From contig CAYZFN010000224.1 in assembly GCA_964477695.1 (NCBI GenBank), forward strand, positions 1-58,855: a stretch of DNA of 58,855 nt, in the 5' to 3' direction. The notes beneath the pieces were generated by a model that was given only the letters and a program-made list of their open reading frames with translations, was not told the origin of the DNA and did no database searches. Below are positions 38,541 to 42,793 of the stretch, piece after piece. Source of the DNA: an uncultured Enterobacteriaceae bacterium (GTDB taxonomy: Bacteria; Pseudomonadota; Gammaproteobacteria; Burkholderiales; SG8-39). Position numbers and translations under genes: made by a program. The stretch's first letter is position 1; every line of letters begins with the position of its first letter.

Positions 38541-38614
38541 TGGAGGCGGGAGTCGGAATCGAACCGGCGTCCACGGCTTTGCAGGCCGCTGCATGACCAC
38601 TCTGCCATCCCGCC
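38541..38614 (-). tRNA. tRNA-Cys (GCA)
   Basis: GGCGGGATGGCAGAGTGGTCATGCAGCGGCCTGCAAAGCCGTGGACGCCGGTTCGATTCCGACTCCCGCCTCCA. Confidence 0.96.
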
Positions 38615-38670: not shown

Positions 38671-38746
38671 TGGAGCGGGAAACGAGTCTCGAACTCGCGA
38701 CCTCAACCTTGGCAAGGTTGCGCTCTACCAACTGAGCTATTCCCGC
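38671..38746 (-). tRNA. tRNA-Gly (GCC)
   Basis: GCGGGAATAGCTCAGTTGGTAGAGCGCAACCTTGCCAAGGTTGAGGTCGCGAGTTCGAGACTCGTTTCCCGCTCCA. Confidence 0.97.
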
Positions 38747-38763
38747 AGGGCATGGCCATTATA

Positions 38764-39339
38764 TCAACTGCCGACCGCCGCATGGGGCAGCGCCTTGCGC
38801 ACGTAATAGAGCAGCGACACGACCGTGAGCACCGCCGCCACGATGATGAGCAGCGTCCCGTACCAGAGCGTGTCCAGACCGAAAATAGGATCGTGGTAAA
38901 GGAGCAACGGAATCGCGATCATCTGGAACGCGGTCTTCAGCTTGCCCACGAAAGCGACCGCCACGCTGCTCGCCTGCCCGACCTTCGCCATCCACTCGCG
39001 CAGCGCGGAAACGCCGATCTCGCGGCCGATGATGATCAGCGCGACCAGCATGTCGACGCGCTTCAGGTGCAGCAGCACGATGAGCGCCCCGGCGACGATC
39101 AGCTTGTCCGCCACCGGATCGAGGAACGCGCCAAACGCCGACATCTGGTTCAGCCGCCGCGCGAGGTAGCCGTCCAGCCAGTCGGTCACGGCCGCGACGA
39201 TGAACACGATCGTCGCCGAGACGTTCTTGCCGTGCAGCGACAGCCAATCCTCCGGAAGGTAATACAGCGCGATGATGAGCGGGATCAGCACGATGCGCGA
39301 GAACGTGATGACGTTCGGCACGTTGACGAGCCGTTTCAT
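38764..39339 (-). CDS. pgsA: CDP-diacylglycerol--glycerol-3-phosphate 3-phosphatidyltransferase
   Basis: PNVITFSR, TDWLDGYLARR, GAFLDPVADK, GREIGVSALRE. Confidence 0.95.
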   Translation of the reverse strand: MKRLVNVPNVITFSRIVLIPLIIALYYLPEDWLSLHGKNVSATIVFIVAAVTDWLDGYLARRLNQMSAFGAFLDPVADKLIVAGALIVLLHLKRVDMLVALIIIGREIGVSALREWMAKVGQASSVAVAFVGKLKTAFQMIAIPLLLYHDPIFGLDTLWYGTLLIIVAAVLTVVSLLYYVRKALPHAAVGS

Positions 39340-41123
39340 CCGGCAACCCTCATTTGCGCGCCCTCGTGCAGGTGCCGGTAGATGCGCTCGGCGAGCGGCC
39401 GGCTGATGCCCGCCACCTTGGCGATGTCGTCGATCGCAGCGGCCTGCACGCCTCTCAAGCCGCCAAAGTGCTCGATCAGCGCCTGACGGCGCTTCGCGCC
39501 GATCCCGGGGATCTCGTTCAGCAGCGAAGTCGTGCGCGCCTTGCCGCGCCGCGCCCGGTGGCCGACGATCGCGAAGCGATGCGCCTCGTCGCGGATCGCC
39601 TGGATGAGGTGCAGGCCCGGATGCGAGGGGGCGAGCTCGAGCGAGCGCGCCTCGGATTCGACGATCAGCTCTTCCTGCCCGGGCTTGCGCGCGGGCCCTT
39701 TCGCCACGCCGACCACGCATACCTGGTGCAGTCCCAGGTCGGCGAGCGCGGCGCGCGCGGCGGCGACCTGCCCGCGGCCGCCGTCGATCAGGATCAGGTC
39801 CGGGATGCGCCCGCCTTCGGCGCTCACTCTCTCGTGGCGGCGCGACAGCGCCTGCCGCATCGCCGCGTAGTCGTCGCCCGGCGTGATGTCGCGGATGTTG
39901 AACCGGCGGTATTCGGACTTCTGCATCTGGTTGCGGTCGTACACCACGCACGAGGCGACCGTCGCCTCGCCCATGGTATGGCTGATGTCGAAGCATTCGA
40001 TGCGCTGCGCGCCTTCCGCAAGGCCGAGCGCTTCGCGCAGCGCGGCCAGGCGCGCCTCCTGCGTGGCGCGGTCGCGCACGCGCTGCGCGATGGCGAGCAG
40101 CGCGTTCTTGCGCGCCATTTCCAGCCAGACGCGGCGCTCGCCGTGCACCGGGTTGACGACATTCTGCAGCTCCACCGGCTCGTCGGTGACGATGAGCGCC
40201 GGCGCCGGCTGCTCGACGTAATGCTGCTCGAGGAAGGCGCCCACCACCTCGCCGCTCGCCGCGCCTTCCGCGTTCGAGGGAAAGAAGCTGCGGTCGCCGA
40301 CATGCCGTCCGCCGCGGATCATGACCAGGTTGACGCAGGCGATCGCGCCCTCGATCGCGCACGCCACGACGTCCGCGTCGACGCCGCGCTCCGACTCGAC
40401 GTACTGGCGAGCCTGCACGCGCGCGAGGGCGCGCACCTGGTCGCGATACGCGGCCGCCTCCTCATAGCGGCGCGCCTCCGAAGCGGTGTGCATGCGGGCA
40501 TTCAACCTGTCGATCACGTCGGCCTCGCGGCCCTCGAGGAACAGCATCGCGTTGGCGACGTCGTCGGCATAGGCGTCGGCTGCGATCTTGCCCGTGCACG
40601 GCGCCGTGCAGCGCTGGATCTGGTGCAGCAGGCACGGCCGCGAGCGGTTCTCGAACACCGAGTCCTCGCAGGTGCGCAGCCGGAACACGCGCTGCAGCAG
40701 CTGGATCGATTCGCGCACCGCGTAGGCGTGCGGGAAGGGCCCGAAGTAGCGGTGCCGCCGGTCCTTGGCGCCGCGGTGGAATCCGAGGCGCGGGAACTCG
40801 TCGCCCGTGACCACGAGGTACGGATAGGACTTGTCATCGCGAAAGAGGATGTTGTAGCGCGGGTTGAGGCTCTTGATGAGGTTGTTTTCCAGCAGGAGGG
40901 CTTCTCCCTCCGAGCGGGTCGCCGTCACCTCCATGCGGGTGACCTGCGACAGCATCATCTCGATGCGCGGGCTCTGCGCCTGCTTCTGGAAGTACGAGGC
41001 GACGCGTTTCTTCAGGTCGCGCGCCTTGCCGACGTACAACGCGTCGCCCTCCTTTCCCAGCATGCGGTAGACGCCCGGAAGATTCGGCAGCCCGGCGACG
41101 AACGTCTTTGCATCAAATGCCAT
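39336..41123 (-). CDS. uvrC: Excinuclease ABC subunit C
   Basis: PGVYRM, YVGKARDLKKRV, PRYNILFRDDKSYPY, ECFDISH, LIDGGRGQ, RDEAHRFAI, C-terminal HhH. Confidence 0.95.
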   Translation of the reverse strand: MAFDAKTFVAGLPNLPGVYRMLGKEGDALYVGKARDLKKRVASYFQKQAQSPRIEMMLSQVTRMEVTATRSEGEALLLENNLIKSLNPRYNILFRDDKSYPYLVVTGDEFPRLGFHRGAKDRRHRYFGPFPHAYAVRESIQLLQRVFRLRTCEDSVFENRSRPCLLHQIQRCTAPCTGKIAADAYADDVANAMLFLEGREADVIDRLNARMHTASEARRYEEAAAYRDQVRALARVQARQYVESERGVDADVVACAIEGAIACVNLVMIRGGRHVGDRSFFPSNAEGAASGEVVGAFLEQHYVEQPAPALIVTDEPVELQNVVNPVHGERRVWLEMARKNALLAIAQRVRDRATQEARLAALREALGLAEGAQRIECFDISHTMGEATVASCVVYDRNQMQKSEYRRFNIRDITPGDDYAAMRQALSRRHERVSAEGGRIPDLILIDGGRGQVAAARAALADLGLHQVCVVGVAKGPARKPGQEELIVESEARSLELAPSHPGLHLIQAIRDEAHRFAIVGHRARRGKARTTSLLNEIPGIGAKRRQALIEHFGGLRGVQAAAIDDIAKVAGISRPLAERIYRHLHEGAQMRVAG

Positions 41124-41174
41124 TGATTTCATTATAAATGGGGTAAAATTCGCGCCTTTTTGGTGGCGGCAAAC

Positions 41175-41741
41175 ATGGCAAAAGTCGAAGCAGTCGAAAT
41201 CCGTCCCGGCCAGCTCCTCGAATGGGACAAGCGCGTCTGGCGCGTCCTCAAGAGCTACCACGTCCATGTCGGCGGCCGCGGCGGCGCGTTCATGCAGGTC
41301 GAGATGAAGGACATCGAGGCCGGCACCAAGACCAACCAGCGCTTCCGCACCGAAGACAAGGTCGAGCGCGCCTTCGTCGATCCGCGCGACATGCAATACC
41401 TCTACCAGGACGGCGACAGCTACGTATTCATGGACAAGGAGAACTACGAGCAGCTTTCGCTGCCGGAGGATTTCCTTGAAGGCCAGGCCGGATACCTGCT
41501 TCCGAACACCGACGTGCAGATCAATTTCTACAACGGGCGGCCGATCGGCGTCGAGCTTCCGCCGTCGGTCGTGCTGACGGTCGCCGACACCGAGCCAGGC
41601 ATCAGGAACGCCACCGCCACCAATACCTTCAAGCCGGCGAAGATGGAGACCGGCATCACCGTGCAGGTGCCCCCGTTCATCAACAAGGGCGAGAAGATCA
41701 AGATCGACACCGTCGAAGGCACCTACATGGAGCGCGCCTAG
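41175..41741 (+). CDS. efp: Elongation factor P with atypical HVHVGGRGGAF loop
   Basis: EIRPG, QVEMKD, RFRTEDKVE, MQYLY, FMDKENYEQ, ELPPSVVLTV, KPAKMETG, VPPFI. Confidence 0.92.
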   Translation: MAKVEAVEIRPGQLLEWDKRVWRVLKSYHVHVGGRGGAFMQVEMKDIEAGTKTNQRFRTEDKVERAFVDPRDMQYLYQDGDSYVFMDKENYEQLSLPEDFLEGQAGYLLPNTDVQINFYNGRPIGVELPPSVVLTVADTEPGIRNATATNTFKPAKMETGITVQVPPFINKGEKIKIDTVEGTYMERA

Positions 41742-41748
41742 CCCGGGC

Positions 41749-41769
41749 AATTGGTGACTGTCACCAATT
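41749..41769. repeat. Perfect AT-rich palindrome between convergent efp and nagZ
   Basis: AATTGGTGAC-T-GTCACCAATT. Confidence 0.8.
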
Positions 41770-42793
41770 AGGCTCTGAGCAGGCTCAGCGCTTCCTGCCC
41801 CTCCCGATAGGCAACGCTCTTGCGCAGGTCGCGCCCCCCCTGCTTGCGCATGCGGTCCAGCCGCGCGGGCTTCGCCAGCGGCACGTCCCTGAGCGACTCC
41901 AGCAGCCGGTTCTGACCTTCCGGGTCGTTGCAGAGGAGGACCATGTCGCAGCCGGCCTCGAGCGCGGCGCGCGCGCGTTCCGGCGGTCCGCCGGCGGCAC
42001 GCGCGCCTTCCATCGACAGGTCGTCGCTGAACACGAGTCCGTCGAAGCCGAGCTTGCCGCGCAGCACCTCCTGCAGCCAGAAGCGTGAATAGCCGGCCGG
42101 CTCGGCGTCGCACTGCGGATAGATGACGTGCGCCGGCATGACGGCGGCGAGTCCGGCGTCGATCGCGGCGCGGTAGGGCACGAGATCCTTGCCGGCCATC
42201 ACCTTGAAAGGCCGATCGTCCACCGGCACGGCGACGTGCGAATCGGCGGCAGCGAAGCCGTGCCCGGGAAAATGCTTGCCGACGGCCGCCATCCCGGCGT
42301 CCTTGAACCCGAGTACCAGCTGCGAAGCGAGCGTGCCGACTGCGCTCGGATCGAAGTGCAGCGCCCGGTCGCCGATGACGCTGCTCGTGCCGTAGTCGAG
42401 ATCGAGCACGGGCGCGAAGCTGAAGTCGATGCCGAGCGCGCCGAGCTCGGCGCCGCTCACATACGCGGCGGCGCGCGCAGCGGCCTTCGCGGCCTCGCGC
42501 TCGCGGTCCCACAGCCTTCCGAGCTCGCGCATCGCCGGAATGGCGGTGAAGCCGTCGCGGAAGCGCTGCACGCGGCCGCCCTCGTGGTCGACGCACAGCA
42601 CGAGCTCGGGCTCCCGCAGCTTGCCGATTTCCCCGGTGAGGAGCCGCAGCTGCTCCGGGTTCTGGTAGTTGCGCGAAAAGAGGATCACCGCGCCGGCCGC
42701 CGGATGGCGCAGGCGCTCGCGATCGTCGTCCGTGAGCTCGGGACCGAGCACGTCGATCACCGCGGGTCCGGGCGGCAGCCTTACTTTTCGCAT
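41768..42793 (-). CDS. nagZ: Beta-N-acetylhexosaminidase
   Basis: ILFSRNY, VDHEGGRVQRF, FAPVLD, KHFPGHG, DSH, VMPAHV, SDDLSM. Confidence 0.95.
   Translation of the reverse strand: MRKVRLPPGPAVIDVLGPELTDDDRERLRHPAAGAVILFSRNYQNPEQLRLLTGEIGKLREPELVLCVDHEGGRVQRFRDGFTAIPAMRELGRLWDREREAAKAAARAAAYVSGAELGALGIDFSFAPVLDLDYGTSSVIGDRALHFDPSAVGTLASQLVLGFKDAGMAAVGKHFPGHGFAAADSHVAVPVDDRPFKVMAGKDLVPYRAAIDAGLAAVMPAHVIYPQCDAEPAGYSRFWLQEVLRGKLGFDGLVFSDDLSMEGARAAGGPPERARAALEAGCDMVLLCNDPEGQNRLLESLRDVPLAKPARLDRMRKQGGRDLRKSVAYREGQEALSLLRA

What the first reader, a model, noticed from the sequence alone, without database searches (positions are those of the whole stretch)
41124..41741. EF-P with a GGRGG loop and no earP at the usual locus
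Seen: the loop reads HVHVGGRGGAFMQVE, with Arg at the tip and one residue more than HVKPGKGGAF. efp starts about 50 nt from uvrC, leaving no room for earP. Known: betaproteobacterial EF-P usually has an Arg loop rhamnosylated by EarP encoded beside efp, and from memory the pair lies between nagZ and uvrC in Burkholderiales. Inference: the scaffold looks more like PGKGG-type (alphaproteobacterial-like) EF-P, suggesting in-place replacement by a modification-independent or differently modified EF-P.
Basis: partly seen in the sequence, partly recalled or inferred. Interest (0 to 1): 0.65.

Follow-up and report, generated by a model that had tools for sequence, protein, structure and literature searches.

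The report
Arg-tip EF-P that needs no EarP
This gene is the only copy of translation factor EF-P in a soil betaproteobacterium. It belongs to a widespread subfamily with a slightly longer, glycine-rich arginine loop that occurs instead of the usual sugar-modified EF-P, and a close relative from Nitrosomonas communis has already been shown to work in E. coli without any modification.

Summary
The efp CDS (41175-41741, +) encodes a 188-aa EF-P with the loop HVHVGGRGGAFMQ and Arg35 at the tip. The loop is one residue longer than the canonical 7-residue loop. The gene starts 51 nt from the divergent uvrC.

No EarP, EpmA or EpmB was found in this MAG or in 24 genomes of the same genus.

The protein belongs to a monophyletic betaproteobacterial subfamily with an invariant loop, nested among HVKPGKGGAF Lys-type EF-Ps. 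It is far from EarP-type EF-P and from EfpL.

In 301 genomes of the order, 49 of 51 carriers lack EarP (Fisher p = 3e-42). The subfamily is the sole EF-P of all 27 sampled Nitrosospira genomes.

"In-place replacement" is not supported. The nagZ|uvrC slot is this gene's own conserved position. EarP-type relatives have an empty slot, and their earP-efp pair lies elsewhere in 10 of 11 cases. Some Nitrosomonas carry both loci.

The window protein is 69% identical, with an identical loop, to N. communis EF-P (A0A0F7KHW6). Brewer et al. (BMC Biol 2026) showed that protein rescues an E. coli efp mutant unmodified. Modification-independence is therefore likely but unproven in a native host.

Verdict: a new member of a known kind, of moderate interest.

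The parts
41175..41741 (+). efp CDS, 188 aa plus stop; the only EF-P gene in the MAG
   Evidence: Translation. TIGR00038 scores 237.5 bits against a cut-off of 185.8, and all three EF-P Pfam domains are present. It is the only TIGR00038 match in the genome. The MAKV N-terminus is conserved across the clade, which supports the ATG at 41175 over the TTG at 41160.
41259..41297 (+). Codons for residues 29-41, HVHVGGRGGAFMQ: the beta3-beta4 loop region. The loop HVGGRGGA has 8 residues, with the Arg35 codon at 41277-41279.
   Evidence: Sequence. A one-residue insertion relative to 7-residue loops is placed by both MAFFT and HMMER. H29 to A38 are invariant in 40 aligned homologues of 66-95% identity. 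The AlphaFold2 model has strands at 20-31 and 38-46 and a turn at 32-37.
41124..41174 (.). 51-nt divergent intergenic region between uvrC and efp
   Evidence: Coordinates. The consensus scan found no sigma-70-like promoter here.
39336..41123 (-). uvrC (595 aa), the divergent neighbour; pgsA lies further downstream of it
   Evidence: ORF and tblastn synteny.
41768..42793 (-). nagZ (341 aa), convergent with efp; it is the last gene of the era-recO-pdxJ-acpS-nagZ string
   Evidence: ORF list and synteny.
41749..41769 (.). 21-bp AT-rich palindrome (AATTGGTGACTGTCACCAATT) between the efp stop and the nagZ stop
   Evidence: Sequence. Similar hairpins follow efp in some relatives (L045, L023) but not in most. 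Its function was not tested.

Best explanation
This is the genome's sole, primary elongation factor P. It is the factor that enters the ribosomal E/P-site region and helps peptide-bond formation at Pro-Pro motifs. It belongs to a betaproteobacterial subfamily descended from PGKGG Lys-type EF-Ps, in which the tip Lys became Arg, the flanking Pro became Gly, and the loop gained one residue (KPGKGGA to HVGGRGGA). [quoted passage not shown] This is the same principle as the unmodified, loop-extended Arg33 of EfpL, reached independently. The subfamily and the earP plus EarP-type-efp module are alternative solutions in Betaproteobacteria. This gene sits in a conserved slot between nagZ and uvrC, while the earP-efp pair usually lies at another locus. 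Most lineages keep only one of the two. What is shown: gene identity, loop anatomy, phylogeny, the anti-correlation with EarP, and synteny. What is taken from a published experiment on a 69%-identical homologue: activity without modification. What is inferred: the native unmodified state and the tRNA contact.
For: Identity as EF-P comes, and the fold matches solved EF-P structures with TM 0.8-0.9. It is the only efp in the MAG. It is also the only EF-P match in complete single-contig genomes of the subfamily: G250 and Nitrosospira G335, G350 and G383. There is no EarP in 25 of 25 genomes of the genus, and no EpmA over cut-off or EpmB in the MAG plus 24 relatives. In 301 genomes of the order, 51 carry the type and 49 of those lack EarP, while 238 of the 250 others have EarP (Fisher p = 2.7e-42). 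All 27 sampled Nitrosospira/Nitrosovibrio genomes carry the type alone and have no EarP. The clade is monophyletic and nested in HVKPGKGGAF Lys types. The loop is invariant. The window protein is 69% identical, gap-free and loop-identical to N. communis A0A0F7KHW6. According to PMC12931083, that protein restored colony size of E. coli delta-efp delta-uup to 71% of the E. coli EF-P level, rescued polyproline reporters, showed no mass shift, and was not rhamnosylated by S. oneidensis EarP. EfpL gives a precedent for an unmodified Arg on an extended loop. A crude ORF set of the MAG holds about 307 PPP motifs against about 202 expected from composition, so there is no sign of EF-P dysfunction.
Against: No native-host mass measurement exists for any member, and the authors of PMC12931083 themselves say direct confirmation is needed. 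In E. coli the N. communis protein rescued only partly and did poorly on the strong LPPP motif. That could mean a native modification is missing. The loop is Gly-rich and presumably flexible, unlike the Pro-stiffened loop of the known unmodified PGKGP type. Absolute invariance of 10 loop residues would also fit recognition by a modifying enzyme. The extension is one residue, not the two of EfpL. The MAG is only 83% complete. The PPP count rests on crude ORF calling.
Confidence: 0.65

Rival explanations
1. Arg35 is modified in the native host by a still unknown enzyme encoded away from efp, which would be a further EF-P activation chemistry. The activity seen in E. coli would then be only a basal, partial activity.
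For: The loop H29-A38 is invariant across proteins of 66-95% identity. Rescue in E. coli was partial and performance on LPPP was poor. About half of bacterial EF-Ps have no assigned modification, and genomics cannot tell an unmodified protein from an unknown modification.
Against: No gene is consistently linked to efp. The extra ORFs in the slot in other families (a family-4 uracil-DNA-glycosylase-like ORF by sequence motif, a cation-diffusion-facilitator-like ORF, a small DUF-like ORF) also occur in EarP-type genomes that lack this efp. The homologue is clearly active unmodified. AT-rich, small-genome carriers (G165, 31% GC) keep efp in a different neighbourhood with no candidate partner.
Confidence: 0.22
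2. EarP is encoded in the unassembled 17% of the MAG, and Arg35 is rhamnosylated as in other Betaproteobacteria.
For: The MAG is 83% complete in 244 contigs. Two of 51 carriers in the order survey, and three Nitrosomonas genomes, do have EarP.
Against: EarP is absent from 25 of 25 genomes of the genus, several of them 94-99% complete, and from 49 of 51 carriers. It is also absent from all 27 Nitrosospira genomes, including complete ones. Wherever EarP co-occurs, a separate EarP-type efp is also present, and in four of the five such genomes the two genes are adjacent. S. oneidensis EarP did not rhamnosylate the N. communis homologue.
Confidence: 0.02
3. The protein is an auxiliary, EfpL-like paralogue, and the primary EF-P gene is simply missing from the incomplete assembly.
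For: It meets the operational EfpL criterion of Sieber et al., a loop longer than 7 residues with Arg at the tip. In N. communis and three sampled Nitrosomonas genomes it co-occurs with another EF-P.
Against: The EfpL and YeiP NCBIfam models score 155.7 and 138.1 bits against cut-offs of 216 and 264, while the efp model passes. In the tree it is far from EfpL. It is the only EF-P match in complete genomes G250, G335, G350 and G383 and in 19 genomes of the genus. It lacks the conserved Pro three residues upstream of the Arg that marks EfpL.
Confidence: 0.03

Closest known systems
Nitrosomonas communis Nm2 EF-P (UniProt A0A0F7KHW6), 'EF-PNico' of Brewer et al., BMC Biol 2026 (PMC12931083): an arginine-type EF-P without a known modification system
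   Same: It belongs to the same subfamily. It is 69% identical over 188 residues with no gaps, and residues 18-56, which include the HVHVGGRGGAFMQVEMKD loop, differ at only three conservative positions. Its Nitrosomonas relatives G382 and G400 also have the gene next to uvrC-pgsA.
   Different: In N. communis it co-occurs with a second EF-P. In this MAG, its genus, and all sampled Nitrosospira it is the only EF-P. From the text held, the paper treats it as one of eight test cases; I did not find a description of the clade, its loop extension, its locus, or its exclusion of EarP. The paper's Table 1 was not readable here.
EfpL (YeiP) of E. coli, PDB 8S8U (Sieber et al. 2024)
   Same: It has an Arg at the tip of a beta3-beta4 loop longer than the canonical 7 residues. 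EfpL's Arg33 was shown to be unmodified, with the extension proposed to compensate. Both have an Ala in place of Asp in the G-D-T stretch of domain III loop I.
   Different: The EfpL loop has 9 residues (SPTARGAAT) and a conserved Pro; here the loop has 8 residues and no Pro, and the insertion is at a different place. EfpL always accompanies a primary EF-P, whereas this protein is the sole EF-P. The EfpL models score below cut-off, and the protein lies on a different branch of the tree.
EarP-type EF-P (Arg32 rhamnosylated; P. aeruginosa 3OYY/6J7M, Neisseria, most Betaproteobacteria)
   Same: Arg sits at the loop tip, and both occur in the same bacterial order.
   Different: Identity is only 31-37%. 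The EarP-type loop is 7 residues (K[SG]GR[NS][AS]A), one residue shorter. EarP is absent here. The two types are nearly mutually exclusive in genomes and lie at different loci.
Thermus thermophilus EF-P (1UEB/4V6A) and Deinococcus EF-P: Arg-tip GRGGA loops with no known modification
   Same: They share the R-G-G-A motif after the tip and have no known modifier. The D. radiodurans protein is also active unmodified in E. coli.
   Different: The Thermus loop is 7 residues (KLGRGGA) and identity is about 38%. The lineages are separate in the tree, so the Arg was acquired independently.
PGKGP-type unmodified EF-P (Corynebacterium glutamicum 6S8Z)
   Same: Both use a built-in, modification-free activation strategy, proposed here and shown there. 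C. glutamicum gives the best overall structural match (TM 0.89).
   Different: That type has a Lys tip and a 7-residue loop stiffened by two prolines. This type has an Arg tip and an 8-residue loop with four glycines and no proline.

Membership tests
Elongation factor P (TIGR00038 / PF08207+PF01132+PF09285) | Three-domain architecture, with the family model scoring above the curated cut-off | tested here: met
   237.5 bits against a cut-off of 185.8, and all three Pfam domains are present. The AlphaFold2 model has mean pLDDT 88.5 and TM 0.8-0.9 to solved EF-Ps.
Elongation factor P (TIGR00038 / PF08207+PF01132+PF09285) | A basic residue at the apex of the beta3-beta4 loop of domain I | tested here: met
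   Arg35 aligns with E. coli K34 and T. thermophilus R32. It lies in the predicted turn 32-37.
EarP-type (rhamnosylated) EF-P | The EarP glycosyltransferase (PF10093) is encoded in the genome, usually next to efp | tested here: not met
   No match in the MAG or in 24 genomes of the same genus. EarP was found in 240 of 301 genomes of the order, which shows the search works.
EarP-type (rhamnosylated) EF-P | A 7-residue K-x-G-R-x-x-A loop and placement in the EarP-type branch | tested here: not met
   The loop is the 8-residue HVGGRGGA, identity to EarP-type proteins of relatives is 31-37%, and the protein is on a separate branch.
EfpL (YeiP) | A loop longer than 7 residues with Arg at the tip (operational criterion of Sieber et al. 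2024) | tested here: met
   The loop has 8 residues with an Arg tip. This shows the criterion alone is not specific to EfpL.
EfpL (YeiP) | Family models above cut-off, a conserved Pro three residues before the Arg, and placement in the EfpL branch | tested here: not met
   NF003392 scores 155.7 against 216 and TIGR02178 scores 138.1 against 264. There is no Pro in the loop. The protein is distant from E. coli EfpL in the tree.
EfpL (YeiP) | Strict co-occurrence with a primary EF-P | tested here: not met
   It is the only efp in the MAG and in complete genomes of the subfamily.
EpmAB(C)-type Lys EF-P | A Lys tip, with EpmA (TIGR00462) and EpmB (TIGR03821) in the genome | tested here: not met
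   The tip is Arg. Only LysRS-like matches below the EpmA cut-off were found, equally in EarP-type relatives. There was no EpmB match in 25 genomes, while E. coli was detected over the cut-off by the EpmB model and is among the two controls over the EpmA cut-off.
PGKGP-type unmodified EF-P | A Lys tip flanked by two prolines (P-G-K-G-P) | tested here: not met
   The loop is GGRGG with no proline.
Arg-type EF-P without known modification, N. communis kind (Brewer et al. 2026) | Close sequence relationship, and the same loop as the tested protein A0A0F7KHW6 | tested here: met
   69% identity, no gaps, identical loop. The UniProt identifier was confirmed through the cluster look-up.
Arg-type EF-P without known modification, N. 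communis kind (Brewer et al. 2026) | Polyproline rescue without any post-translational modification | not testable with these tools
   This was shown for the homologue in E. coli only. Nothing has been measured for this protein or in a native host.

The most novel reading that the evidence does not exclude
Arg35 of the HVGGRGGA-type EF-P carries a still undescribed modification in its native hosts, made by an enzyme encoded away from efp. The invariant Gly-rich loop would be that enzyme's recognition element. This would be a new EF-P activation chemistry, present in Nitrosospira and many soil Betaproteobacteria.
Probability: 0.15. Interest if true: 0.75.

Novelty: new member of a known kind. 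Interest (0 to 1): 0.38.

Why it matters
EF-P is usually inactive until an enzyme decorates its loop tip, and Betaproteobacteria are the textbook home of the rhamnose (EarP) solution. These data show that about a sixth of sampled betaproteobacterial genomes use a different, Lys-type-derived EF-P as their only EF-P. That group includes every sampled genome of the cultured ammonia oxidiser Nitrosospira and abundant soil lineages.

This EF-P has an 8-residue Arg loop and no known modifier. It is nearly mutually exclusive with EarP, and close relatives differ in which system they keep. That gives three things:
- a natural system for studying how modification-dependent and built-in EF-P designs replace each other;
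- a second, independent case after EfpL of "a longer loop plus Arg instead of a modification";
- a caution that the "loop longer than 7 residues with Arg at the tip" rule does not identify EfpL uniquely.

The core functional claim, activity without modification, was already published for one member in 2026. This window adds context rather than a new kind of system.

Tried and rejected
- **EarP elsewhere in the genome.** Rejected: there is none in the MAG, the genus, or 49 of 51 carriers.
- **EpmA/EpmB.** Rejected.
- **Neighbouring genes as modifier candidates.** The family-4 UDG-like ORF, the cation-diffusion-facilitator-like ORF and the small DUF-like ORF found in the slot in other families also occur in EarP-type genomes that lack this efp. 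They were named by eye from sequence motifs and not run against Pfam. I dropped them.
- **In-place replacement of earP-efp.** Tested by locating uvrC and EarP in 11 EarP-type genomes. Only G101 has the pair next to uvrC.
- **Remnants of efp in the empty slot.** In G218 the nagZ and uvrC alignments are at most 80 bp apart, and in G030 the two flanking ORFs are 217 bp apart. tblastn found no remnant.
- **Literature search for the GGRGG motif together with EF-P.** No paper was found.
- **Table 1 and supplements of PMC12931083.** They are not held as text. I established the identity of the tested N. communis protein through the cluster look-up instead.
- **IQ-TREE with bootstraps.** It timed out. 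The trees are FastTree only, so deep branch order and the direction of replacement are tentative.
- **Genome-wide phylogenetic profiling for a co-occurring modifier.** Not possible, because only the window's own genome can be loaded.
- **Consensus promoter scan of the 51-nt intergenic region.** It found nothing.

Full report
**What is at the coordinates**

The window carries, in order, pgsA(-), uvrC(-), efp(+), nagZ(-), acpS(-), pdxJ(-), recO(-) and era(-). The efp CDS runs from 41175 to 41741 and gives a 188-aa protein. The MAKV start is conserved in all relatives, so the ATG at 41175 is preferred over the TTG at 41160.

The uvrC start codon is at 41121-41123 on the other strand, which leaves 51 nt of intergenic DNA. 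nagZ ends at 41768, 27 nt after the efp stop. The finding's start coordinate, 41124, is therefore the first intergenic base and not the gene start.

The protein passes the NCBIfam efp model (237.5 bits, cut-off 185.8). It fails both EfpL/YeiP models and has the three Pfam EF-P domains. An AlphaFold2 model (mean pLDDT 88.5) shows the EF-P fold, with TM 0.81-0.89 to T. thermophilus, S. aureus and C. glutamicum EF-P.

**The loop**

Residues 29-41 read HVHVGGRGGAFMQ. Three independent alignments place one extra residue relative to the canonical 7-residue loop (KPGKGQA in E. coli, KPGKGGA in the nearest relatives, KLGRGGA in Thermus):
- MAFFT over the 150 best representatives;
- MAFFT over 130 tree sequences;
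- HMMER against solved EF-Ps.

Here the loop is HVGGRGGA, 8 residues, with Arg35 aligned to E. coli K34. The model puts strands at 20-31 and 38-46, with V32-G37 as the turn.

Positions H29 to A38 are invariant in 40 homologues of 66-95% identity. They are also invariant in every relative I extracted, from at least 17 families of the order.

**No known modification system**

The MAG is 83% complete in 244 contigs. It has one efp and no EarP. EarP is absent from all 24 other genomes of the genus. In the same search it was present in 12 of 16 genomes from other families of the order, which is the positive control.

The EpmA model finds only full-length LysRS-like frames below its cut-off, and finds them equally in EarP-type relatives. 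EpmB finds nothing in 25 genomes, while the E. coli control is detected over cut-off.

**Where the protein belongs**

The exhaustive profile-free search shows a sharp drop in identity. Members of this loop type reach down to 58%, and the next full-length proteins are at 45-52% and carry HVKPGKGGAF or HTQPGKGGAY loops.

In a FastTree phylogeny the HVGGRGGA proteins are monophyletic. Their sister is a betaproteobacterial HVKPGKGGAF protein (G043, a Nitrosomonas genome without EarP, 58% identity). The group is nested among PGKGG Lys types, one of which is from Ca. Pelagibacter. EarP-type EF-Ps of relatives (31-37% identity) cluster with E. coli EfpL on a distant branch, as the literature also reports.

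The "PGKGG-type scaffold" reading is therefore supported. The simplest history is Lys to Arg, Pro to Gly, and one inserted residue on a Lys-type background.

**Distribution**

I sampled 301 genomes evenly from the order, requiring completeness of at least 90% (the window's own 83%-complete MAG is also counted).
- 51 carry this type at 64% identity or more.
- 240 carry EarP.
- Only two (G037, G078) carry both.
- The 2x2 table is 2 / 49 / 238 / 12, Fisher p = 2.7e-42.
- Of the 12 genomes with neither, nine hold other EF-P kinds: a Lys PGKGG type, an E. coli-like PGKGQ type, a KSGTGGGAF type, and two family-f46 genomes with an unexamined type. In three, no EF-P was detected.

Cluster look-ups give names. 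Family f19 is Nitrosomonadaceae. All 27 sampled Nitrosospira/Nitrosovibrio genomes, including closed ones, have this type as their only EF-P and have no EarP. Most Nitrosomonas have earP plus an EarP-type efp. Three (G376, G382, G400) have both systems.

The window's own relatives are uncultured soil "Burkholderiales/Betaproteobacteria bacterium" MAGs.

**Synteny, and the "in-place replacement" idea**

The HVGGRGGA efp lies between uvrC-pgsA and nagZ-acpS-pdxJ-recO-era, or at least next to uvrC, in families f1, f4, f7, f14, f19, f20, f22, f45, f51 and f54.

I located uvrC in 15 genomes that lack this efp type, 11 of them with EarP. In 10 of those 11 the earP-efp pair is on another contig or hundreds of kilobases away.
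- At seven of these EarP-type junctions nagZ is the neighbour and no efp lies between nagZ and uvrC. The same is true of two EarP-free genomes, G225 and G070.
- At three EarP-type junctions (G039, G099, G100) no nagZ lay in the stretch fetched.
- In G218, from the same family as the window, nagZ and uvrC are about 80 bp apart.
- In G030, the same genus as carriers G091 and G138, only efp is missing between the small DUF-like ORF and the UDG-like ORF.
- Only G101 (family f22) has efp-earP directly beside uvrC, and there nagZ is not nearby.

Nitrosomonas G382 and G400 carry the HVGGRGGA gene at the uvrC slot and earP-efp at a second locus at the same time. The two systems are therefore not allelic.

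A uvrC tree interleaves carriers and EarP-type genomes down to genus level. In genus g7 the EarP-type genome G030 is nested among carriers, but that node has weak support (0.69). This hints that there the mobile earP-efp module replaced the resident gene, not the other way round.

The same applies to the wording of earlier scan note e1-5119589, "at exactly the same chromosomal spot". Deep direction remains tentative because I have only FastTree trees.

**How it most likely works**

The window protein is 69% identical, gap-free and loop-identical to N. communis Nm2 EF-P, UniProt A0A0F7KHW6. Brewer et al. (BMC Biol 2026, PMC12931083) expressed exactly that protein in E. coli delta-efp delta-uup and reported the following:
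- It restored colony size to 71% of the E. coli EF-P level.
- It rescued polyproline reporters, doing better than E. coli EF-P on TPPH and poorly on LPPP.
- It showed no modification by mass spectrometry.
- It was not rhamnosylated by S. oneidensis EarP.

EfpL gives the mechanistic precedent. There, an unmodified Arg on a loop extended by two residues is proposed to stack on the CCA end.

I therefore take the best explanation to be a primary EF-P with built-in activation: an 8-residue loop presents unmodified Arg35 to the P-site tRNA. The MAG's crude ORF set holds about 307 PPP motifs against about 202 expected, so polyproline translation is evidently not being avoided.

The steps that are inferred and not shown are the native unmodified state and the tRNA contact. 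The main rival, an unknown native modification, keeps about 0.2. The reasons are that rescue in E. coli was partial and that loop invariance could equally reflect enzyme recognition. Against that rival, no gene is consistently linked to efp.

**Comparison with what is known, and novelty**

The protein is not an EarP-type EF-P, not EfpL, not EpmAB-type and not PGKGP-type; defining features of each were tested and not met. It is a member of the pool of Arg-type EF-Ps without a known modification system, and specifically of the kind represented by the tested N. communis protein. I rate it "new member of a known kind".

Four points add to the literature I could read:
- the loop extension and its invariance;
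- the origin from a Lys type;
- its role as sole EF-P in whole lineages, including Nitrosospira;
- the near-exclusive relationship with EarP and the conserved slot.

It also shows that the operational definition of EfpL, a loop longer than 7 residues with an Arg tip, is met by an unrelated primary EF-P.

**Limits**
- The trees lack robust support values, because IQ-TREE timed out.
- Table 1 of PMC12931083 was not readable.
- A genome-wide search for a co-occurring modifier could not be run.

Noticed in passing
window 41749-41769: A perfect 21-bp AT-rich palindrome (AATTGGTGACTGTCACCAATT) lies between the convergent efp and nagZ stops. Near-identical or similar hairpins (AAATGGTGAC.GTCACCATTT, AATCGGGGTC..CCCGATTT) follow efp in some same-genus relatives but not in most. 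This looks like a small REP-like or terminator hairpin family.
   Followed up: partly
L150 (G181, same family as the window), L151 (G075), L153 (G205), L152 (G294): A second, divergent EF-P-like paralogue (about 190 aa, 30-32% identity) co-occurs with the HVGGRGGA EF-P in genomes without EarP. Its loops read EYHAGGGQFGG, EYHAGSGKFGS or EYRVAAGKFGS, and some copies have neither Lys nor Arg at the tip position. The copies form their own clade in the tree.
   Followed up: partly
L154 (G308), L155 (G071), family f47: These carry an EF-P with the loop RTVKSGTGGGAF, which has Thr at the tip position and is also one residue longer. It is the only EF-P match in AT-rich genomes of about 2-3 Mb without EarP. 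Other genomes of the same genus (G165, G274) carry the HVGGRGGA type instead.
   Followed up: no
L157 (G225, family f25) and L156 (G052, family f28): One betaproteobacterial genome has an E. coli-like PGKGQAF EF-P (63% identical to E. coli EF-P) and no EarP. Another has an alphaproteobacterial-style YPGKGTPVTQ EF-P in addition to earP-efp. Both look like further horizontal EF-P exchanges within the order.
   Followed up: no
representatives P0137, P0140-P0144 and others: Many of the next-best EF-P representatives have H[RH]TPGN[LK]R loops with Asn where Lys or Arg normally sits. Their organisms were not identified.
   Followed up: no
L178 (G376:C1:1759615-1760157) against EarP at G376:C1:1192560-1193672: In this closed Nitrosomonas genome the EarP-type efp and earP are about 570 kb apart instead of adjacent, and the genome also carries the HVGGRGGA efp.
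   Followed up: partly
window 38541-38614 and 38671-38746 (minus strand): tRNA-Cys(GCA) and tRNA-Gly(GCC) genes lie directly downstream of pgsA. This is an ordinary arrangement.
   Followed up: no
L118, L119, L123, L124, L127, L128, L130, L131 (carriers) and L135, L136 (EarP-type genomes): In other families the nagZ|uvrC gap also holds a roughly 215-aa ORF with a C-x-x-C-P-R-L motif. By eye it resembles a family-4 uracil-DNA glycosylase. Some loci add a His-rich cation-diffusion-facilitator-like ORF or a roughly 120-aa DUF-like ORF. These occur with or without efp, and the window's genus has none of them. They were not run against Pfam.
   Followed up: partly
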